Virus record (IMG/VR): IMGVR_UViG_3300017989_000063
Reading direction: 5' to 3' (one strand)
From: an uncultured virus (IMG/VR IMGVR_UViG_3300017989_000063)
Lineage: Duplodnaviria > Heunggongvirae > Uroviricota > Caudoviricetes
Length of the DNA: 64,000 nucleotides
Below are positions 1-40,003 of this stretch, one piece after another. Every line of letters starts with the position of its first letter. Position 1 is the first letter of the stretch. Position numbers and translations under genes: made by a program. A model generated the notes under the pieces. It was not told the DNA's origin, searched no databases, and saw only the letters and a program-made list of their open reading frames with translations.

Positions 1-1240
1 GCCTGGACATGCCCGCGGCGCACCGTAACCAGGGGACCTAACCTAGACGGCCGAGTCGTGTACCACCGCAACATGCCGCGATAGACCCATCCCTACCTGG
101 ACGGCCGAGGCGCACGTTGACGGGTCACGACTCACCCAACCTTGGCGGCCCAGCGATACCGCTGACCTGATTCGCCCGAACTAGTGTTGCCCGAACAGGA
201 CTTGTCACGACAGGCTCGCCTCGCGGAAGCCTAGACTTCCAAGGTCGCGCCTTCCATGACAGCCAGAACAAGAACCCGGGATGCCGACCGTGCTCCACCT
301 AGACGGCCCTGCCAAGTCGATGCCATCCATTCCAGGACTCACGTCGGCAGACCGTAACGGGACGGCCGGGACGTGCCGCAGCCCAACTAAGGATAGCTAG
401 CCCAACCCTGACGGCCAAGACAGCGCCATCCTAAACGGGACTCGTCCCACCGATGTTGACCTAACCGCAACGGCCAAGTCGCGCAATACCTAACCCAGAC
501 TCGGCCCACCGTAGTAGACCTAACCTCGACGGCCTCACAGCACCAGGTGCAACCAACAGCACGACTCGCGGAAACTCGTCCAACCTAGACGGCCAGACCT
601 CTCCGCACCAATGCACACAAGTCGTACCATTCCTTGACGGCCTCGACAAAGCTGACCATGCCGACCGGTCCTGGACGCGACTCGTCTTGCCTTGACGGGC
701 GAGCCTTAACGCGTCCTGCCTCTTCGGACCGTACCTCTCCACTTCTCAACACGACGGCCGCACCATCAACGAGCAGCGCCAGCGACCTGTCTTGCCGAAC
801 GGTAGCTTGCCTTGACGGCCAAGACCAAGCCCACCATTCCGTACCGCATTCCGAAGCCGCCTCACGCAGCCACGACGGCCGCACCATCCCAGACCTGACA
901 TGGCTCACTATGCCTGACCTCGACGGCCCCGACCTGCCGTACCCTCCATAACAGGAGCAACCGGAACTCTCCAAGACGGCCCGGCCAAACAGAACCTAGA
1001 CATCCGATTCCTGGACGCGACTCGCCTCGACGGCCACGCCCCCCGCAGCACCTCAACTCAACATTACAAGTTCTACCAAGACGGCCTGGCCGAGCCATAC
1101 CCCGGCGCACCATGATAGTCGATGCCTGACATGACGGCCTAACCATAGCGCGCCTGACCTTGGGAAACCTCACCCCGCCACTGCGCGAAGTACCATGACG
1201 GCCCCACCAATCCGCACCACGTCTTCTGTCTCGGATTGGA
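1..1240 (-). repeat. Non-coding array of >=22 units of 44-65 nt with 5-nt GGY-NN periodicity (putative guide-RNA array); runs off the left edge
   Basis: GACGGCC or a close variant on + at 46,100,144,209,258,302,361,410,469,528,588,636,694,753,814,874,922,975,1029,1080,1133,1197. Between anchors the sequence reads NN-RCC-NN-RCC, e.g. from 1087: TG GCC GA GCC AT ACC CC GGC GC ACC AT. Lies directly downstream of the 1747..2526 and 1241..1750 genes. Confidence 0.9.
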
Positions 1241-1750
1241 CTAGAGCGCGTCGATCTCGGCGAAGACGCCGGCGAGCTGCTTCAGGTCCCGGTACTTCTC
1301 TCGGAACGCCTTGAGCTCACGCTTCGCCGTGCGAAGAGCAGCATCTCGCATCTCCGCGTTGCTCATCACCACCTTGGTCGGCGCGGTCACGCGCTCGATG
1401 GTGACGTCCATCGTGTCGGGTTCGGAGGGGTCGGCCTCCTCGAACTCGACGTCGAGGGTGAGGAACGCGCGGATGGGGTGCTGCTCCTCATCGTCGGTCT
1501 CGGGCAGGTAGAGGATGGACCGCAGGACGTACCCAGCCTGGCTGCGCCAGTGGGCCTCGGCGGCCTCCTCCACGGTGCGGTCGAAGATGGCCTGCCCGAG
1601 CGGACTGCGCTTCGCCCGTCGGGCCGCGGTGACCAGAACGTCGGCGCCCGCGTCGCCGTGCTCCTCGTAGAGCTCGAGGATCTGATCGCCGATGGCCTGG
1701 GCGTCGTGGGCCAGCAGCCCGCGCGCCATCTTCTTCCACGAGAAGATCAT
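1241..1750 (-). CDS. Accessory protein (169 aa) coupled to the RAMP-like gene
   Basis: ATG at 1750 overlaps the TGA of the upstream gene (ATGA). Sequence DAQAIGDQILEL..AARRAKRSPLGQAIFD..AAEAHWRSQAGYVLRSI, with a helical C-terminus. Confidence 0.85.
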   Translation of the reverse strand: MIFSWKKMARGLLAHDAQAIGDQILELYEEHGDAGADVLVTAARRAKRSPLGQAIFDRTVEEAAEAHWRSQAGYVLRSILYLPETDDEEQHPIRAFLTLDVEFEEADPSEPDTMDVTIERVTAPTKVVMSNAEMRDAALRTAKRELKAFREKYRDLKQLAGVFAEIDAL

Positions 1751-2526
1751 CGCTTCACCACCATGAAGCGTCCCCACTGGCCGCCCTTCTCCGGGCGGTT
1801 CTCGAGGACACCGACACCGAAGCCCGCGCGGTCGAGCAGGTGGGTCAGCTGGTTGGGCTTGATGAGGGAGGGGTCGTACTCGATGGTGACGTCCGCCTCC
1901 CACTCGGCGAACTCGCACCGGAAGCGGAGGTCGGACTTGCCCATGCCGATGGTGACGTTGTCCTCGCGCATCGTCGGCGGGTTCTTGCTCTGGATGGTGA
2001 CCAGGTCACCGTCCGCAGCGTCGCCGACCACGAAGAACATGCCGCGGGTCGCCGCCATCGTCGGACCGTCGATGTGCCGGACGGCCGACACCATCGCCTT
2101 GGCGAACGCCACGGACGGGATGCCGAAGGTCCCCTTGGCGAATGCCTTCTTCAGCTTGTCCGTGAGCTCGAGCAGCTTGTTGTAGTCGAGGGTCTCGCCC
2201 TCGGCGAGCTGCGGGATGACCAGGGGATCGACCTCGGAGGGCTTGCCCTTGATCCAGTACGCCGAGTCGACGCACTCCTTGTGCGGGTTGCGGGGGCCCT
2301 TCTTCTGCTTGGGGATCTGGAGCTGCTTGGCCAGGATCTCCAGCTTGCCCTTCTCGGCCCACTTGTGCGGGACGAGCGGAGACCCGGGCCGGTTGCGCAC
2401 CCTGACGCGGATGCGCTCCGTCCTCACCGGCGGGAACGAGACGGACACGAGCCCGCCTCCTTTCTTCGCCGCGGGCTTCTTCTTGGCCGGCGCCTTCTTC
2501 GTCGCTGTCTTCTTCGCAGTTGCCAC
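1747..2526 (-). CDS. Stand-alone Cas7/RAMP-superfamily-like protein with a Lys/Ala-rich N-terminal tail
   Basis: GTG start with AGGAGGTG RBS. RAMP-like motifs: RIRVRVRN-PGSPL, FGIPSVAFAKAMVSAV (cf. IPGSSLKGALR), RFRCEFAEWEADVTIEYD, and the terminal Gly-rich loop AGFGVGVLENRPEKGGQWGRFMV. Confidence 0.75.
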   Translation of the reverse strand: MATAKKTATKKAPAKKKPAAKKGGGLVSVSFPPVRTERIRVRVRNRPGSPLVPHKWAEKGKLEILAKQLQIPKQKKGPRNPHKECVDSAYWIKGKPSEVDPLVIPQLAEGETLDYNKLLELTDKLKKAFAKGTFGIPSVAFAKAMVSAVRHIDGPTMAATRGMFFVVGDAADGDLVTIQSKNPPTMREDNVTIGMGKSDLRFRCEFAEWEADVTIEYDPSLIKPNQLTHLLDRAGFGVGVLENRPEKGGQWGRFMVVKR

Positions 2527-2615: not shown

Positions 2616-2653
2616 AAAAAAGACCGGACACCTCCCGAAGGAAGCGCCCGGCC
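2616..2653 (-). terminator. Intrinsic terminator closing the tmRNA/tRNA-like cluster
   Basis: GGCCGGGCGCTTCC-TTCG-GGAGGTGTCCGGTC followed by T6 on the minus strand. Confidence 0.8.
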
Positions 2654-2897: not shown

Positions 2898-3273
<376 letters not shown>

Positions 3274-5244: not shown

Positions 5245-5955
5245 TCAGCCACTCCAAATGGAGTCCATTTGCTCTTCTAGATCCATCAGGACGTGCCTCC
5301 CGGTGATCTCCATCTCCAGAAACCGGACAGGCTCGTCAGGAGGAAGCTGTGGATACCGAGGTCGATCGTCAAGGAACCTGAAAGGAGAGATAGCCTCAAA
5401 GTCGAGGCGTGGCCCACTGTACTCTCCCCTGACATGAGTCCCCTCAAACCACTCCGGAGGCGTCGTAAGAGGCAAAGAATACCCACGGGATCCGATCTCC
5501 TCCGACCTCTTTCGTCTCTTCTTCCGACGACGCTTCTTCTTCTTTTGTCTCTCCAACCTCTTTCGACGTCGGTACTCCTCGGACAGTCGTTTATCTTCCT
5601 CTTCGGGGATCCCGAATAGATCGATTGCGTGGATCCAGTCGTAGCCATCACACTTTTGCCGAATGACTGTGATTTCCAGCCAATCGGACAGGAATTTGGC
5701 TCGATAGATCTCGCGGTAGTAAGTGCACTCCTTGGTGAGTTTCACAAGCTGTAGAGAAACTCCAGCCCTTCTGATGAGGCGGTGAGAGACCAGCTTGTCG
5801 GGGGAGAATACAGCAGCTAGAGAGTCACTCACTTCTCTAGATCGATACACGAAAAATTGATCGAGCCTGTCCCAGATTAGGTCGGTAATGCTGAGAGGTC
5901 CATAGACGGCTTCTGGTATAGCTGCGACGTTGGCGGGGAGCTCAATCGTTTTCAT
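5245..5955 (-). CDS. Hypothetical protein, lower GC, with an Arg/Lys-rich tract
   Basis: 236-aa ORF with AGGAG RBS. Confidence 0.65.
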   Translation of the reverse strand: MKTIELPANVAAIPEAVYGPLSITDLIWDRLDQFFVYRSREVSDSLAAVFSPDKLVSHRLIRRAGVSLQLVKLTKECTYYREIYRAKFLSDWLEITVIRQKCDGYDWIHAIDLFGIPEEEDKRLSEEYRRRKRLERQKKKKRRRKKRRKRSEEIGSRGYSLPLTTPPEWFEGTHVRGEYSGPRLDFEAISPFRFLDDRPRYPQLPPDEPVRFLEMEITGRHVLMDLEEQMDSIWSG

Positions 5956-13255: not shown

Positions 13256-13966
13256 TTGCTTATTTTGGTCGCAGGGCTAGGACGATCTGGGACCCATCTT
13301 CTTGGGAGGCTGCTTGGATCTCACCCACAGGTGTCAGTAGACCTGGAGAGGCAGCCCCAGTTCGACCTGGTCACCAGGATGGCCGTGAACAGGACTGAGC
13401 GGCATCGGATGCCCGAGCTGGTCGAGGTGTATCGCCGACGGATGAAGACGTGCGGGAGCAAACACCTGGCCGACAAGTCTCATCCAGTCCTGTGGATCTC
13501 ATCCGAGCTGTCCAAGCTGATCCCGGCCATGAAGGTCGTGGGCATTCGTAGGGAGGCTCTCCCGAACATCTCCAGTATGCTGAAGCACCCAGGGGTCCTA
13601 TCGTGGTTCAGTCGGTGGAGAGGGTACCCCGTCCCCAACGGATTCCTCGGCATCGGCAGGTCGGACATCCGACGCTACTGGAAGCTGTCTGTGGAGGAGA
13701 GGTGTGCTCTTCGGTGGCTGTCCCATCAGCGAAGGCTAGATGACCTCGAGGCCGATGGGGTGCTGGTCGTATCGTTCGAGGAGCTCGTGAGCGACCCCTC
13801 GGTGCAGAAGAAGATTTGGGACTACTTGCAGCTCGATGCTCCCATTACCTACACCCAGTTCGATAGAGCGCCGCTGAAGAAGTGGCGTCTGCACCTGAGC
13901 CTGCGTCAGCAGAAGAAGATCTCGGGCTTCATCGAAGAGGAAAGGACTCGAAGAGCCTCTTCTTGA
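13256..13966 (+). CDS. Sulfotransferase family protein
   Basis: GLGRSGT PAPS-binding loop; GSHP, DKS, IRR..NISS, VSFEELVSDP. Confidence 0.85.
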   Translation: MLILVAGLGRSGTHLLGRLLGSHPQVSVDLERQPQFDLVTRMAVNRTERHRMPELVEVYRRRMKTCGSKHLADKSHPVLWISSELSKLIPAMKVVGIRREALPNISSMLKHPGVLSWFSRWRGYPVPNGFLGIGRSDIRRYWKLSVEERCALRWLSHQRRLDDLEADGVLVVSFEELVSDPSVQKKIWDYLQLDAPITYTQFDRAPLKKWRLHLSLRQQKKISGFIEEERTRRASS

Positions 13967-14717
13967 TCTCTTCTATTCCGGGCCGTCTGTAGGGCCCGAT
14001 CTTGTCGATGATGGTCTTGTTAGTGTCTCGGCTGTCGAGAGTGATCGGATTCTTCCGGATGCCGAACGCGCTGTAGTAGTCGTCGAATTTGAAGCGGCCG
14101 CCTATGATGCCCTTGCCGTCCGCGAGCCAGAGCCAGCGATTGGGGATGCCTAGAGAGTCAGCCAGCACGAGTCCGTGGAGCGACGAGGAGACGATGAACT
14201 CGCAGCGCTGTGCCTCGACGATCACGCGAGGCACCAGCATCCGGATGTTGATGAAGTGGATTCCAGGTCTCCTCGACAGCTCCCGCACGATTCGATGCTT
14301 GTGGTGGATGAGGTGAGGAATGAATCCGACTCGGTGGGTCTTCTTCACCCCGCTGCACTTCAGCAGGTGAGCGAGCAGACCGGGGTCACCGAGGACCGTC
14401 TTCTTCGGATCTACTCCGAGCTTCTCCGCAGTCCTGGTTCCTCGAACGGCCGCGATCTTCGCCCGGGGGAAGAGAGGGTCTGGGACGTCGTCCTTGATGA
14501 ACCCGGTGCCCCAGATGTGGCCGTCGTAGTCTCGGCTGATCCACTGCAGCAACGAGCCTGCTCCGACGATCTGGCAGCCGGGCTTCTTGCGAGCGTCGGA
14601 GAACTCCACCTCCCGGCCGGAGAGGATTCGACAGAGGAATGGGGTGAGGTCGTCCCCGAAGTTGGTGGTGCTGCCCAGCCCACCTCTGCCGTGCCAGTAT
14701 GCCTTGACACTGTCCAT
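13929..14717 (-). CDS. Polysaccharide pyruvyl transferase family protein
   Basis: NFGDDL, GAGSLL, WGTG, AVRG, GDPGLL, SSSLHGLVLADSLGIP, FKFDDYY. Confidence 0.88.
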   Translation of the reverse strand: MDSVKAYWHGRGGLGSTTNFGDDLTPFLCRILSGREVEFSDARKKPGCQIVGAGSLLQWISRDYDGHIWGTGFIKDDVPDPLFPRAKIAAVRGTRTAEKLGVDPKKTVLGDPGLLAHLLKCSGVKKTHRVGFIPHLIHHKHRIVRELSRRPGIHFINIRMLVPRVIVEAQRCEFIVSSSLHGLVLADSLGIPNRWLWLADGKGIIGGRFKFDDYYSAFGIRKNPITLDSRDTNKTIIDKIGPYRRPGIEEIKKRLFESFPLR

Positions 14718-14783
14718 GCAGCGAGCCTAAACCAGGTTGACGCCGTTCGGCAAGCGGTCTAGGCTTCAACCAGGAGGTAGGAC

Positions 14784-16652
14784 TTGCGAGACAAGGTCAC
14801 GGCCTCGATGGCCACACACCCTCCTCGGAAGGGTAGCGTGGTTCTGGCTGCGAAGAGTCTGCTCCCACAGGTGGACAGGCTGAACATCTACCTCAACAAC
14901 TACTCCTCTGTCCCTCGAGCTCTCCGTCACCCGAAGATCAACGCGGTGCTGTCGAAGAACGGCCGCGGAGATCTCGGGGATGCAGGCAAATTCTTCTGGG
15001 CCGACCAGGTGGAGGGCTATCACCTGACGGTGGACGACGACATCCTCTACCCGTCGGACTACGTCAGCCGGCAGGTGCAGGCGGTAGAGAAGTACCGTCG
15101 GCGCGCCCTCGTTGGTGTGCACGCCAGGATCTGGAGAGGAGGATTCAAGGACTACTACAGACCGAAGAGGGTGATCGGCTGGACGCAGCCATCGAAGGAG
15201 GACGTCTTCGTCCACACCCTCGGGACGGGGACGCTCTGCTACCATACCAGCACGCTGAAGATCGACCCGACCTTGTTCCGGTACCCGAACATGGCTGACA
15301 TCTGGCTCACCGTCCTGGCCAAGAAGCTCGGGGTTCCGATGGTCAGTCTGAGCAGGAAGTCCGGCTGGATGACCATGGTCCCCGGATCTCAAGAGGTGTC
15401 CATCTTCAGCAACACCTGTCCGCAGGGTGACACCAGGGCGAAGCACCGAGAGATCATGAGCGGGTACAACTGGAACGACCGGGGCATCAAGGTCTCGGCC
15501 GTCATTCCCGTGCAGAACGAGGAGGATGTCGAGCAGGCGAGGACGACGCTCGTCTCTCTGCTGCGTCAGCACCGGAGACCTGATCACATCGTGGTCCGAA
15601 CGAACAGCAACCTCTTCGACAAGATCGGGCCCGACCTCATCGACCGTGCCGAGGCCGTGAGAGGTGACGGTCCCGAGGAGCTCGCCGAGCTTCTGATCCC
15701 GGCGGGCGTCTTCCTGCCTCCTCTTTACATCTGGGAGTGTCTGGACCGCCTGGCCGATCGCGACGTGGTGGCCGTGCCCAACATGCTGGCCGAGCAGAAA
15801 GGGCCTGCGGATCTCTGGGGCCGTGTGACCTTCTGGAGGCCTGATCGCGGAGTAGTAGCGAGGAGGACAACGGGAGATGGTGGTCGCACCTCTCGGTTGT
15901 TCGGGTCAGTGAGAAGAGGAGGGGCCGTCAAGGACAGCAAGAGCACCGGAGTGTCTCGGGGGGTCACGCTCATCATCCCTACCTACAACAGGAAGGAGAA
16001 GGTCATTAGGGCCATCAGGTCCATTCCTAGGAGAGAGGTGGATGAGGTCCTGGTGGCGGACGACAACAAGAAGCCGATGCGGTTGATGATGGACGGAGTC
16101 ACGTTCATCCCGACGGGAGGCATCGGGGACGAGGGAGGATCCTACTCTCGCAACTGCGGCCTATTCGCGGCCTCGTTCGACAAGATCGTCTACCTGGACG
16201 ACGACGACTACCTCAGCGGTCCTGGATCCGTCTCCTCCAGGTCGGACGCTCTCGACGAGCACGAGCTCGTGTGGGGGGACATCCAGTTCGACGACTACGC
16301 TGCGGTGCCATCGAAGATGAGGGTGGTGAAGTCGATCAGGTACCGGAAGGGCTCGCTCTACACGAACCACAACAACACGATCATCGGATCCCAGATCGCG
16401 CACCGACAGGACCCGGACAAGTTCAGGTGGATACCTGGAGGCAGAGAGGCAGATAAGCGATTCATCCTGGCTGCCAAGGAGGCCGGAGCTGACGGTGCTC
16501 GAGTTCCTCGGGTGGTTGCTCACTACGGCCGCTCGGTACCGTTCTGGGGATCCAGGGCGAGAGTCCCCACACCCGGAGTGGAGGTCAGCCGAGCTGCATC
16601 CTCGGCTCACAGGAAGCCCCTTCGCCGAGACCCCAGGAGACATCGGAAATGA
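14784..16652 (+). CDS. Glycosyltransferase with tandem GT-A (GT2-like) domains
   Basis: TVDDDILYP in the N-terminal domain; IIPTYNR..VADD..RNCG..YLDDDD in the C-terminal domain. TTG start uncertain. Confidence 0.85.
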   Translation: MRDKVTASMATHPPRKGSVVLAAKSLLPQVDRLNIYLNNYSSVPRALRHPKINAVLSKNGRGDLGDAGKFFWADQVEGYHLTVDDDILYPSDYVSRQVQAVEKYRRRALVGVHARIWRGGFKDYYRPKRVIGWTQPSKEDVFVHTLGTGTLCYHTSTLKIDPTLFRYPNMADIWLTVLAKKLGVPMVSLSRKSGWMTMVPGSQEVSIFSNTCPQGDTRAKHREIMSGYNWNDRGIKVSAVIPVQNEEDVEQARTTLVSLLRQHRRPDHIVVRTNSNLFDKIGPDLIDRAEAVRGDGPEELAELLIPAGVFLPPLYIWECLDRLADRDVVAVPNMLAEQKGPADLWGRVTFWRPDRGVVARRTTGDGGRTSRLFGSVRRGGAVKDSKSTGVSRGVTLIIPTYNRKEKVIRAIRSIPRREVDEVLVADDNKKPMRLMMDGVTFIPTGGIGDEGGSYSRNCGLFAASFDKIVYLDDDDYLSGPGSVSSRSDALDEHELVWGDIQFDDYAAVPSKMRVVKSIRYRKGSLYTNHNNTIIGSQIAHRQDPDKFRWIPGGREADKRFILAAKEAGADGARVPRVVAHYGRSVPFWGSRARVPTPGVEVSRAASSAHRKPLRRDPRRHRK

Positions 16653-17698
16653 AGATCCTGCAGCTCCTGGCCGGGTACGACAGCGCAGGGCTCTTCGGAT
16701 CTATCACCCCTCTTATCTCGGAGCTACGACGTAGAGGGCACGACGTCCAGGAAGCATTCGTGCCTCTCAGGACCAAGCAGATCAAGGACGTCGTCTACTC
16801 GGCCGAGAGAATGGCGTCCGTGTCTCCCCAGATCAGGGCGAGCGACGTGGTCCACGTCCACACCCCGACGGTGCACCTGATGGCCGCGACGACCGGCATC
16901 GTGCCGGACAACGTCGCTCTGGTCTCCTCCAGACACGCCACCGGAGTCCCTCGAGGAGAGGACTGGCGTCGAGCGTACAAGCGGACCGACATCATCGTTC
17001 CTGTGGCCAGGTATCTGGTGCAGGAGTTCTACGACGCCGGCGCCCCGGCCGGGAAGCTGTTCCCGGTCCACAACGGAGTCAACCTGGTGGATTACGAGGG
17101 CGACCGGACCGAGGCGAAGAAGAAGCTCGGAATCAGCCCGGACACGGTGGTGGTGGGCTGGACCGGTAGGTTGAGCTGGGTGAAGAACCTTCGCAACACG
17201 TTCGGGGCGACAGCGGCCGCGATCAAGGCCGCGAAGCGTCCGGCCGTGTTCCTCGTCGCCGGCGCCGGCAAGGAGGGAGGTCGCCTGGCTGCTCTCGTCA
17301 AAGAGAACGGCTGGGAATCCAAGGTTCGGATGCTGGGCTTCTTGAAGCGCCCCGAGCTGCTCGAGTTCCTCCCCGCTCTGGACATCGCGGTCCACTACTC
17401 CTGGACGGAGGCGTGCAGCGTCTCTCTCATCGAGTACCTAGCCAGTGGGGCCGCGGTCATCGTCTCTCCGGTCCCAGGCAACAAGGAGGTGGTGGGCAAG
17501 TCCGGACTCGTGGTCGAGATGACCCCTCCGGCGCTGTCCTCGGGCATCAGGATTCTGATCGACGACGAGATCTACAGGAGGAAGATGCAGGCCGCCGCGA
17601 GGGACCGGGCCAGGATGTTCGACGTGTCGGTTACAGCCTCGAAGATGGAGATGGCGTACCAGATGGCCGTGGAGCGCCGTTGCGGCGCAGGAGCATGA
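16649..17698 (+). CDS. GT4 (GT-B) glycosyltransferase
   Basis: VHNGV, GRLSWVKN, EACSVSLIEYLASG (E-x7-E). Confidence 0.9.
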   Translation: MKILQLLAGYDSAGLFGSITPLISELRRRGHDVQEAFVPLRTKQIKDVVYSAERMASVSPQIRASDVVHVHTPTVHLMAATTGIVPDNVALVSSRHATGVPRGEDWRRAYKRTDIIVPVARYLVQEFYDAGAPAGKLFPVHNGVNLVDYEGDRTEAKKKLGISPDTVVVGWTGRLSWVKNLRNTFGATAAAIKAAKRPAVFLVAGAGKEGGRLAALVKENGWESKVRMLGFLKRPELLEFLPALDIAVHYSWTEACSVSLIEYLASGAAVIVSPVPGNKEVVGKSGLVVEMTPPALSSGIRILIDDEIYRRKMQAAARDRARMFDVSVTASKMEMAYQMAVERRCGAGA

Positions 17699-38772: not shown

Positions 38773-39254
38773 TGGGCTACTGGGGCTCCGTCTTCGAGAA
38801 GTTGAGTCAGCGGTCGGTCGATGTCACGAAGGGCTCCCCTCTCTACGACCTCGTGAAGAAGGAGCGCCAGCTCGGTCCTGCCACTGGCGACAACAGCGCT
38901 GGCCGTATCATGTACCTCCAGCTGAAGGCCAAGGGTGTCGTGCCAAACGATCCTCCCGTGACGGCGGAGCCGCTCTCTCGGTCCGTGGGCGGAGGCAGCT
39001 TCGGCGGCTACGATCCCGATGCCACGAAGACCTCGGCCGTGGCATTCACGGATGAGCTCCGGAAGATGGCGGCCGTGCCTGATACCCAGATGCAGCAGAA
39101 GCAGCTCAACGCCAACCGTCGGGTGGGCCGCTTCCTCGGCACCATCGATCATCAGAAGCTGTACGGTCCCGGCCCGAGCTACAAGATGCAGGCGGTGCTG
39201 CAGGGTGGCGGCCAGATCGACACCCCGGCATCGGTCAAGGGAGCCCTTTCTTGA
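38772..39254 (+). CDS. Hypothetical protein with AFTDELRKMA motif
   Basis: TGATG-coupled. Confidence 0.65.
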   Translation: MGYWGSVFEKLSQRSVDVTKGSPLYDLVKKERQLGPATGDNSAGRIMYLQLKAKGVVPNDPPVTAEPLSRSVGGGSFGGYDPDATKTSAVAFTDELRKMAAVPDTQMQQKQLNANRRVGRFLGTIDHQKLYGPGPSYKMQAVLQGGGQIDTPASVKGALS

Positions 39255-40003
39255 TCCATGGGTGGGCCGACTTCGAGAAGGTTGCTGCTGGGTCGCTGAA
39301 GAAGACCCAGCAGTTCGAGCTCAAGCAGTGGGAGAGGTGGAAGACCGGAGGCGAGAAGCCCGAGGACCTGAGACCTCTGCTGCGCTCCCTCAACCCCCTC
39401 GTCCAGAAGCGCATGTCCCAGTGGAAGAACCGGGTTCCGATTCCGCCGGCGGCGATGGAGGCCGAGTTCAAGAAGCACCTGCTGACTGGCCTGCGTACCT
39501 ACAACCCGGACCGTGGGGCGCAGCTCAGTACTCACGTCTATCACCAGATGCGTCGGGCTGACCGCTGGATCAAGACCCACCAGAACTTCGGCTACATCCC
39601 CGAGGAGCGCGTCGACAAGATCGGGCAGTTCCGCCTGGCGGAGCATGAGACGCAGCAGGAGATCGGGAGGCCTCCAACGACAGACGAGCTCGCGCAGAGG
39701 CTGAAGTGGTCTCCCGCCCAGGTCAGCCGGATGCAGCGAGAGCTGCGGGCCGACATCCCCGCCTCCGGTTTCTCTACCGACCCGGCCGCCAACCTCCCCA
39801 GCAAGGAGCGCGAGGCCCTTCGGCTTGTGCAGTGGGAGCTCACTCCAGAGGAGAAGATCGTCTTCGAGCACAGCACGGGGATGAATGGGAAGGAGCTCCT
39901 CACGCCCGGGCAGATCGCACAGAAGCTCAAAATGTCGCCGTCGAAGGTGTCCAGGCTCCGCAACGCCTACAGCAAGAAGCTGTCGAGGCTCCTGTATGGC
40001 TGA
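39251..40003 (+). CDS. Phage sigma70-family (FliA/SigF-like) sigma factor
   Basis: Region 2 YNPDRGAQLSTHV, region 3 EIGRPPTTDELAQRL, region 4 LTPEEK..TPGQIAQKLKMSPSKVSRL. Confidence 0.88.
   Translation: MIHGWADFEKVAAGSLKKTQQFELKQWERWKTGGEKPEDLRPLLRSLNPLVQKRMSQWKNRVPIPPAAMEAEFKKHLLTGLRTYNPDRGAQLSTHVYHQMRRADRWIKTHQNFGYIPEERVDKIGQFRLAEHETQQEIGRPPTTDELAQRLKWSPAQVSRMQRELRADIPASGFSTDPAANLPSKEREALRLVQWELTPEEKIVFEHSTGMNGKELLTPGQIAQKLKMSPSKVSRLRNAYSKKLSRLLYG

What the first reader, a model, noticed from the sequence alone, without database searches (positions are those of the whole stretch)
1..1224. Array unit lengths are quantised at 5n+4 nt
Anchor-to-anchor spacings are 54,44,65,49,44,59,49,59,59,60,48,58,59,61,60,48,53,54,51,53,64. 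Eleven of 21 are exactly 5n+4 and eight more are within 1 nt. The RNA therefore reads as a continuous GGY-NN register interrupted by a 4-nt CGTC insertion once per unit (GGC-CGTC-NN-GGY-NN...). Example on + from 53: GA GTC GT GTA CC ACC GC AAC AT GCC GC GAT AG ACC CA TCC CT ACC TG GACG. The scaffold triplets are degenerate and the dinucleotides differ between units. That fits neither a minisatellite nor codon periodicity. The CGTC punctuation is the natural candidate for a processing site or unit boundary (inference).
Basis: seen in the sequence. Interest (0 to 1): 0.85.

Follow-up and report, generated by a model that had tools for sequence, protein, structure and literature searches.

The report
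Phage VIPR guide-RNA array, staggered type
The five-letter rhythm is real and marks a row of at least 22 guide RNAs of a phage "VIPR" system, a CRISPR-like RNA-guided DNA-recognition system first described in a 2026 preprint, so this is a new example of a very recently described kind rather than a new kind.

Summary
Window 1-1224 is a non-coding array. It has 22 GACGGCC anchors on +, which read GGCCGUC on the minus strand. The Fourier peak lies at 4.92 nt and there is no period-3 signal.

On the minus strand each unit reads (YNNGG)x8-12 + CCGUC. The last C of CCGUC is also the first Y of the next unit, and this 1-nt overlap produces 5n+4.

The two genes directly upstream on the same strand complete the system:
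- 1747-2526 encodes a Cas7/Csm3-like RAMP. It is homologous to the small RAMP-like protein beside the YNNGG tracts of phage SUSP1.
- 1241-1750 encodes a small accessory protein.

This is a VIPR locus (Vipr + Vap + GGY/NN vrRNAs) as described in bioRxiv 10.64898/2026.04.26.720920. Its layout is the "staggered, 1-nt overlapping" array that the preprint figures but does not list among the architectures confirmed by small-RNA sequencing.

The same module occurs in 13 IMG/VR contigs and in cultured Mycobacterium and Gordonia phages.

Read with the preprint's 1-nt-skip rule, two guides spell helicase motif III (VGDxxQxIYxFR). No exact target was found.

Expression is untested. Verdict: new member of a known kind.

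The parts
1..1203 (-). Staggered vrRNA array. It holds 21 complete units (anchor to anchor, 1197 down to 46) and one unit cut by the window start. Each unit is (YNNGG)x8-12 followed by CCGUC, and the last C doubles as the first Y of the next unit.
   Evidence: Contigs of two runs continue past window position 1, so the array may be longer.
1207..1239 (.). 8-bp inverted repeat (1207-1214 / 1232-1239, 17-nt spacer) between the vap stop codon and the first CCGUC. It may be a leader hairpin of the array transcript.
   Evidence: Read directly. Not tested further.
1241..1750 (-). vap-like accessory gene (protein B, 169 aa, phrog_15946). Its ATG overlaps the vipr stop codon (ATGA).
   Evidence: The model has a weak winged-helix-like N-terminal part and a long C-terminal helix. 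It is not similar to the protein encoded next to the SUSP1 RAMP.
1747..2526 (-). vipr gene (protein A, 259 aa, phrog_4652). It is a Cas7/Csm3-like RAMP with a Lys/Ala-rich N-terminal tail of about 25 residues.
   Evidence: Model pLDDT 89.9. Foldseek top hits are Csm3 and type VII Cas7. VIA-align Z is 11.7 and 11.4, and the top 35 rows are all CRISPR RAMPs. HHalign to SUSP1 agp039 gives probability 97.5%.
2622..2653 (-). Terminator-like hairpin (14-bp stem plus a T run) between the tmRNA gene and vipr. It marks the upstream limit of the vipr-vap-array unit.
   Evidence: a consensus scan only.

Best explanation
Window 1-2526 (minus strand) is a VIPR locus (Viral Interference Programmable Repeat) of a large uncultured phage. 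It reads vipr (1747-2526), vap-like gene (1241-1750), then a staggered array of at least 22 vrRNAs (1203-1 and probably beyond).

Shown here: the anatomy, the RAMP fold, homology to the SUSP1 protein, and conserved synteny.

Inferred from the preprint's experiments on type II systems:
- The array is transcribed with or after vipr/vap and cut into RNAs of about 45-65 nt.
- Vipr subunits line each RNA with a 5-nt step, holding the GGY part and presenting the NN dinucleotides.
- The NN dinucleotides pair with double-stranded DNA under a 1-nt-skip rule (xNN), so that a guide of 8-12 pentads reads 16-24 target bases, mostly codon positions 1-2.
- Binding silences genes of competing phages, satellites or prophages.

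The 5n+4 quantisation follows directly from the layout. Every vrRNA is a whole number of pentads, and neighbouring vrRNAs share one nucleotide.
For: 1. Periodicity and logo match YNNGG with free NN.

2. Protein A is a RAMP.
- The model has pLDDT 89.9.
- Twenty-two PDB chains reach Foldseek E <= 0.001. The listed ones are CRISPR effector-complex chains, led by Csm3 and type VII Cas7.
- The VIA-align wide search gives Z 11.7 (6s6b_I, rmsd 3.5, 152 aligned) and 11.4 (9g9a_D), and the top 35 rows are all CRISPR RAMPs.
- Invariant C-terminal glycines G235, G239 and G252 fit a G-rich loop.

3. The profile of A aligns to agp039 of phage SUSP1 with HHalign probability 97.5% and E 6.6e-12. SUSP1 is the preprint's model phage. 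agp039 is a 195-aa protein flanked by YNNGG tracts.

4. Synteny.
- A complete IMG/VR scan returned 65 loci. Nineteen of them, from 13 contigs, carry period-4.9 arrays.
- All 9 loci with an A homologue (8 contigs) also have an array.
- In those loci and in the window the array lies downstream of A, with its G-rich strand on A's sense strand.
- B homologues sit next to A in 6 viral contigs.
- Mycobacterium phage Saal and Gordonia phages Pipp and ODay also have B beside A, plus short arrays with units of 59, 59 and 44 nt.

5. Preprint text: Vipr + vap + 9-16 YNNGG repeats, seven types, and staggered arrays overlapping by 1 nt.

6. Decoding with xNN.
- Unit 1197-1133 reads [IM]TAVG[DE][FL][KN][HQ]A[IM]Y.
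- Unit 1029-975 reads [DE][DE]A[HQ][IM][IM]YS[FL]R.
- Both fit SF1 helicase motif III (the motif is recalled, not taken from a call).
Of these, 116 are in open frames carrying V-G-D..Q.I-Y.
- A 16-base subset of another guide hit only 10 sites.
- None of 20,000 shuffles of the NN dinucleotides gave two such core matches, and 71 gave one.
Against: - There is no RNA evidence. No RNA run holds this DNA, so transcription, strand and processing sites are inferred.
- No exact target was found. The two helicase-reading guides were searched in full in IMG/VR and in the metagenome contigs. An 18-base subset of a third guide was searched in IMG/VR. All five scans returned nothing.
- The helicase motif was recognised after the fact.
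- Only 11 of 21 units are in perfect frame. Position 5 is G in only 55% of pentads, and middle pentads are often degenerate.
- B is unrelated to the accessory protein of SUSP1 (HHalign probability 0.2). Its DNA-binding fold is weakly supported (Z <= 6.5, below the tool's own bar; Foldseek found nothing).
- Some related contigs carry arrays with no vipr within 4 kb, and one carries arrays in both orientations relative to neighbouring ORFs.
- That agp039 is the published Vipr is my reading of the SUSP1 locus. The passages I read give no locus tag.
Confidence: 0.88

Rival explanations
1. The array is an RNA scaffold or decoy, not a set of guides. Protein A coats the GG-periodic RNA to build a filament that sequesters a host factor or a host CRISPR/RAMP component, as an anti-defence sponge. 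On this view the NN dinucleotides carry no targeting information.
For: Middle pentads are degenerate, and no exact target was found for any guide searched. Arrays without a nearby vipr exist.
Against: Positions 2-3 are close to maximal entropy while positions 1 and 4 are held, as expected for information-bearing positions. Two guides decode in codon phase to the same conserved protein motif. The homologous SUSP1 system is reported to be programmable through NN alone (preprint).
Confidence: 0.06
2. The array works as DNA. It would be a row of protein-binding sites (iterons, a partition or packaging site, or a replication origin) with half-helical-turn phasing, and the strand skew would reflect R-loop or G-quadruplex formation.
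For: In one related contig the module lies in a replication/recombination neighbourhood, between an AAA_24 protein and a weak replication-initiator-like HTH protein. The (GGNNN)n tract could in principle form two-tetrad quadruplexes (inference).
Against: The period is 4.92, not 5.25 or 10.5, and there is no power at 10-11 nt. The conserved partner is an RNA-binding RAMP fold. The orientation relative to that gene is fixed in 9 of 9 loci with A and in the window.
Confidence: 0.03
3. The array is a decaying minisatellite or slippage product with no function.
For: Two neighbouring 59-nt units are 80% alike, so the units arise by duplication.
Against: The register, the boundary word and the 5n+4 rule are kept while the sequence between differs. 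This holds across 13 IMG/VR contigs and in cultured phages of two host genera.
Confidence: 0.02

Closest known systems
VIPR systems (Vipr + vap + vrRNA), bioRxiv 10.64898/2026.04.26.720920, 25 Jun 2026. I read the abstract, Results, Discussion, the type-classification method and the figure-legend passages.
   Same: It is phage-encoded. It has a small stand-alone RAMP, a two-gene locus, and flanking non-coding tracts of YNNGG pentads with conserved GGY and free NN. The array architecture is 'staggered', with 1-nt overlap between neighbouring vrRNAs.
   Different: The characterised type II vrRNAs (SUSP1, P. fulva) are about 100 nt long with a structured 3' tail of about 40 nt. Here the only constant part is the 5-nt CCGUC. 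The array is long, with at least 22 units against 4 vrRNAs in SUSP1. The accessory protein is unrelated to that of SUSP1. Vipr carries a Lys/Ala-rich N-terminal tail. The preprint's wording names the hammerhead-interspersed and single-vrRNA systems as confirmed by sRNA-seq, and does not name the staggered arrays.
Class 1 CRISPR backbones (Cas7 / Csm3 / Cmr4 on crRNA)
   Same: The RAMP fold is shared. A protein filament steps along a guide RNA with a fixed register. Guide lengths are quantised by the subunit step (for type III crRNAs this is 6-nt steps; recalled).
   Different: The step is 5 nt, not 6. The register is written into the RNA sequence (GGY). There are no 23-50-nt direct repeats. 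No other Cas family was matched among the 7 proteins scanned against PADLOC. Targeting is non-contiguous according to the preprint.
TRAP on the Bacillus trp leader (11 (G/U)AG triplets with 2-3-nt spacers; recalled from knowledge, not from a call)
   Same: It is an RNA with a triplet-plus-spacer register of about 5 nt and about 11 repeats per protein assembly.
   Different: The protein fold and the biology are unrelated. I considered this early as an analogy and dropped it once the RAMP fold and the preprint were found.

Membership tests
VIPR system | A Vipr protein: a small stand-alone RAMP (RRM core, G-rich loop, thumb) encoded beside the repeats | tested here: met
   Protein A has a Cas7/Csm3-like fold. 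Its C-terminal glycines are invariant. HHalign gives 97.5% to SUSP1 agp039. The thumb was not examined separately. At 259 aa, A is longer than the roughly 20 kDa quoted, partly because of a 25-residue basic tail.
VIPR system | vrRNA tract of tandem YNNGG (or a related pentad), at least 4 repeats and typically 9-16 per vrRNA, with conserved GGY and hypervariable NN | tested here: met
   There are 8-12 pentads per unit. Position 1 is Y in 84%, position 4 is G in 84%, position 5 is G in 55%, and positions 2-3 carry 0.04 and 0.01 bits. The Fourier peak is at 4.92 nt.
VIPR system | An accessory vap gene next to vipr | tested here: met
   B overlaps the stop codon of A (ATGA). It recurs next to A in 6 viral contigs and in Saal, ODay and Pipp. 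Which of vap1-6 it is cannot be told. It is not like the SUSP1 accessory protein.
VIPR system, staggered-array architecture | Neighbouring vrRNAs overlap by 1 nt, so that the end of one is the start of the next | tested here: met
   In the YNNGG frame the last C of CCGUC is the Y of the next unit. As a result 11 of 21 spacings here and 37 of 54 in other contigs are 5n+4. This is an anatomical match only. The processing itself was not observed.
VIPR system | vrRNAs are expressed and bound by Vipr | not testable with these tools
   No RNA run holds this DNA. Only DNA contigs could be laid.
VIPR system | NN dinucleotides specify a double-stranded DNA target with a 1-nt skip, usually at codon wobble positions | tested here: inconclusive
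   Two guides decode in codon phase to helicase motif III, and a control guide gave 10 hits against at least 120. No exact target exists in IMG/VR or in the metagenome contigs. Skip 0, 2 and 3 controls were not run.
CRISPR array | Near-identical direct repeats of about 23-50 nt separating unique spacers, with cas genes nearby | tested here: not met
   The only constant word is 7-12 nt. Tandem Repeats Finder finds just one two-copy 59-nt repeat. Seven neighbouring proteins gave no significant PADLOC Cas hit. The single row was a Csm3 model at E 0.0095 for Saal gp52.

The most novel reading that the evidence does not exclude
This clade may use tail-less, ruler-cut guides and aim some of them at universally conserved protein motifs.

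Two guides of the array read, in codon positions 1-2, motif III of UvrD/PcrA-type helicases. One vrRNA could therefore silence a whole class of helicase genes across diverse competitors, or a host helicase, regardless of synonymous change.

The 5-nt CCGUC with its shared C would replace the 40-nt structured tail as the only processing and capping signal. That implies a different maturation mechanism from the characterised type II systems.
Probability: 0.3. Interest if true: 0.65.

Novelty: new member of a known kind. Interest (0 to 1): 0.45.

Why it matters

For the field, this locus is a large natural example of the staggered array type, which so far has been figured but not listed as confirmed by small-RNA sequencing. 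The same module sits in cultured BSL-1 actinophages: Mycobacterium phage Saal and its relatives, and Gordonia phages Pipp and ODay. There, processing, Vipr loading and targets can be tested directly.

In Pipp the annotated gene 43 lies on the array and is probably not a gene.

The helicase-motif reading of two guides suggests that some guides are aimed at conserved protein motifs. If confirmed, this would bear on how VIPR keeps pace with target evolution.

Tried and rejected
**Searches that gave nothing**
- DNA similarity to GenBank phages: none for the array, and only a 43-nt chance-like hit for the flank.
- Rfam: only the tmRNA.
- Earlier scan notes: nothing relevant.
- The search for related loci with protein A found no relatives by its word method. 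With alignment A1 it was not runnable.
- No whole genome is held for the window.
- Pfam, NCBIfam and PADLOC gave no family for A or B.

**Pattern scans**
- The first three-anchor scan of IMG/VR was mostly chance hits.
- Two false friends turned up there: L020 is a 30-nt tandem repeat, and L055 is a 15-nt coding repeat.
- The genome-contig scan was cut at 120 rows, and none was a true array. The one periodic hit, L230, is a simple 15-nt tandem repeat, and its genome has no A homologue. This truncated sample says nothing on how common the arrays are in cellular genomes.

**Other tests**
- Whole-array RNA folds were uninformative.
- No RNA holder was listed.
- Laid DNA contigs showed no variants. 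The same sequence appears in a sediment run and a seawater run from different studies, both flagged as possible sources of this DNA.
- Target scans found no exact match for guides 1197, 1029 or 528. There was no near match in the window itself at 3 or fewer mismatches. The control subset of guide 753 gave 10 hits, none extending beyond 3 of 6 further positions.
- Fold of B: only weak winged-helix-like matches (Z <= 6.5), and nothing from Foldseek.

**Ideas held early and dropped**
- A TRAP-like ring on RNA.
- Two-tetrad G-quadruplexes.
- An R-loop origin.
- Iterons or partition sites.
- Telomere-like repeats.
- An analogy to immunoglobulin switch regions.

These were dropped once the RAMP fold and the preprint explained the register.

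Full report
**Observation.** Window 1-1224 has no convincing ORF and is strongly skewed, with the + strand rich in C and A (GC skew -0.22, AT skew +0.24).
- GACGGCC occurs 17 times there, always on +. The whole 64-kb window has 56 copies on both strands, against 23 expected.
- Four more copies carry one mismatch.
Eleven are 5n+4 (P 0.00097, or 0.0048 after correcting for the choice of residue). Nineteen lie within 1 nt of 5n+4.
- The strongest Fourier component of the region is at 4.92 nt with power 16.4. The largest band value in 1000 shuffles was 4.8. There is nothing at 3 nt or at 10-11 nt.
- When the units are right-aligned on the anchor, the pentads can be read by eye: ACCTA, GCCCA, TCCAT and so on.

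**Anatomy on the minus strand.** Framed from its 5' end, each unit is (YNNGG)x8-12 followed by CCGUC. The last C of CCGUC is the first Y of the next unit.
- A unit is therefore a whole number of pentads, and neighbouring units share one base. This gives anchor spacings of 5n+4.
- In the 110 pentads of the 11 units that are in perfect frame, position 1 is Y in 84%. Position 4 is G in 84% and position 5 is G in 55%. Positions 2-3 carry 0.04 and 0.01 bits.
- The first and last pentads of a unit are nearly always canonical, and the middle ones are looser.
- Ten units contain an internal 1-2-nt slip.

**A family, linked to a gene.** A three-anchor scan of IMG/VR returned mostly chance hits, but five loci had the same pentad arrays.
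- A sharper pattern, run to completion, gave 65 loci. Nineteen of them, from 13 contigs, carry period-4.9 arrays.
- In these contigs 37 of 54 anchor spacings are 5n+4. Some of the contigs are close relatives of one another.
- tblastn showed that the protein encoded at 1747-2526 (A) recurs beside these arrays.
- With a profile of A, 9 of the 65 loci (8 contigs) have a homologue, and all 9 have an array. In those loci and in the window the array lies downstream of A, with its G-rich strand on A's sense strand.
- The next gene, B (1241-1750), recurs next to A in 6 viral contigs.
- Some contigs have further arrays with no A within 4 kb. One 73-kb contig has at least three arrays. One contig has arrays in both orientations.

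**What A is.** No Pfam, NCBIfam or PADLOC family matches A. PHROGs places it in phrog_4652, of unknown function.
- An exhaustive profile-free search found 2286 cluster representatives at E <= 0.001.
- A model built on 45 sequences has pLDDT 89.9.
- The Foldseek top hits are Csm3 and type VII Cas7 chains.
- An independent all-against-representatives alignment gives Z 11.7 and 11.4, and its top 35 rows are all CRISPR RAMPs.
- The invariant residues include three C-terminal glycines, as in a RAMP G-rich loop.
- The first 25 residues or so form a Lys/Ala-rich low-confidence tail.

**Literature.** A full-text search brought up bioRxiv 10.64898/2026.04.26.720920, dated 25 June 2026. I read its abstract, Results, Discussion, the type-classification method and the figure-legend passages. 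It reports the following.
- VIPR systems consist of a phage-encoded ancestral RAMP (Vipr), an accessory vap gene, and vrRNAs made of 9-16 YNNGG repeats with conserved GGY and hypervariable NN.
- The NN dinucleotides recognise double-stranded DNA with one skipped base per pentad, usually the codon wobble base.
- Natural targets are competing phages, satellites and prophages.
- There are seven types.
- Among the array layouts are 'staggered arrays with overlapping vrRNAs', in which vrRNAs derive from 1-nt overlapping positions.
- The text says that the hammerhead-interspersed and single-vrRNA layouts were confirmed by sRNA-seq. It does not say this of the staggered layout.

**Direct link to the published system.** I fetched the SUSP1 record using an accession I recalled, and the record confirmed the name.
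- Two genes lie between two long intergenic gaps there. The gaps carry the strongest period-5 signals of the first 50 kb of the SUSP1 record and read as YNNGG tracts followed by a constant tail.
- The 195-aa gene product (agp039) aligns to the profile of A with HHalign probability 97.5% and E 6.6e-12, over the C-terminal 64 columns.
- Its neighbour (agp038) does not align to B (probability 0.2).
- That agp039 is the published Vipr is my inference from the layout.

**Cultured relatives.** tblastn finds A homologues in 32 GenBank phage records: 25 Mycobacterium, 5 Gordonia, one cyanophage and one Pseudomonas phage.
- In Saal a 250-nt gap upstream of gp51 (A) reads as (NNGGC)n, with units of 59, 59 and 44 nt closed by CAGGC.
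- In ODay the 213-nt gap between gp19 (A) and gp20 (B) does the same.
- In Pipp the tract is annotated as gene 43.
- B homologues are Saal gp52, ODay gp20 and Pipp gp44.

**Decoding the guides.** I applied the 1-nt-skip rule and read the NN dinucleotides as codon positions 1-2.
- Unit 1197-1133 gives [IM]TAVG[DE][FL][KN][HQ]A[IM]Y.
- Unit 1029-975 gives [DE][DE]A[HQ][IM][IM]YS[FL]R.
- Both fit motif III of UvrD/PcrA-type helicases, VGDxxQxIYxFRGA (the motif is recalled from knowledge).
Of these hits, 116 lie in open frames. All 120 have V-G, 117 have D, 119 Q, 118 I and 117 Y. Thirty-eight continue with [FWY]R[GS]A. The best agrees at 22 of 24 NN positions.
- A 16-base subset of a different guide gave 10 hits in a complete scan, none extending further.
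- Shuffling the NN dinucleotides among the guides never gave two core matches in 20,000 trials, and gave one in 71 trials.
- The motif was recognised after the fact.
- No exact full-length target exists in IMG/VR or in the metagenome contigs. The window holds no near match.

**Protein B and the flanks.**
- The model of B (pLDDT 80) has an N-terminal part with weak winged-helix-like matches (Z <= 6.5, below the tool's own bar) and a 37-residue C-terminal helix. Foldseek finds nothing. This is compatible with, but does not establish, the preprint's statement that some vap genes encode DNA-binding proteins.
- A terminator-like hairpin at 2653-2622 separates the tmRNA gene from vipr.
- An 8-bp inverted repeat lies between the vap stop codon and the first CCGUC.

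**Context.** The window is phage-like: a baseplate J domain, a sigma-70-like factor, an M15 peptidase, several very large ORFs and a tmRNA.
- The identical protein A is on a contig of 199,302 bp.
- The DNA is held without differences by sediment and seawater metagenome runs flagged as possible sources. Their contigs continue beyond the window start, so the array may be longer.
- No RNA run holds the DNA.

**Verdict.** The feature is a VIPR locus with a staggered vrRNA array. It is a new member of a kind described in a 2026 preprint, not a new kind.

What remains open:
- the processing at CCGUC;
- the VIPR type and the role of B;
- whether some guides really aim at conserved helicase codons.

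Noticed in passing
window 2898-3273 (-): A phage-borne tmRNA gene with tag peptide ADDDTVEAPLANAA (ARAGORN; Rfam 106 bits). A strong terminator-like hairpin follows at 2653-2622.
   Followed up: partly
L308 4557-4826 (Gordonia phage Pipp, gene 43): The annotated 89-aa 'hypothetical protein' lies entirely on the period-5 (NNGGC)n tract between the Vipr-like gp42 and the vap-like gp44. It is probably a spurious ORF over a vrRNA array.
   Followed up: partly
window 1747-2526 (-), residues 1-25: The Vipr-like protein carries a Lys/Ala-rich N-terminal tail (low pLDDT). NCBIfam gives a weak hit (E 0.028) to the Rv3852 family. The tail attracts many unrelated contigs when reads are laid (positions 2461-2517).
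   Followed up: no
window 13256-17698: A cluster of sulfotransferase, polysaccharide pyruvyl transferase and two glycosyltransferase genes sits inside a phage-like region. This suggests glycan modification by the phage.
   Followed up: no
window 5245-5955 (-): A low-GC island (54% against 63%) encodes a 236-aa protein with a long K/R/E-rich stretch. It matched no family.
   Followed up: no
window 39251-40003 (+): A sigma-70 region 3/4-like protein lies among structural-looking genes that include ORFs of 1148, 1165, 1965 and 1575 aa.
   Followed up: no
L120 (IMG/VR contig 3300032001_000013, 28000-45046): Four separate period-5 arrays lie within 9 kb. Two have the G-rich strand on the sense strand of flanking ORFs and two have the opposite orientation. 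No Vipr homologue is found in the 17 kb fetched.
   Followed up: partly
units 469-410 and 528-469 of the window array: These two neighbouring paralogous units decode to AY[HQ]SG[DE]PY[CW]L[FL] and [DE]YLTG[DE][CW]Y[IM]A[FL]. They share Y..G[DE].Y..[FL], as if aimed at the same region of two variant genes. No target was found for the one searched.
   Followed up: partly
L020 and L230: These are unrelated simple tandem repeats that contain the anchor word: a 30-nt unit in a viral contig and a 15-nt unit in an Actinomycetes MAG. They were picked up by the pattern scans.
   Followed up: yes
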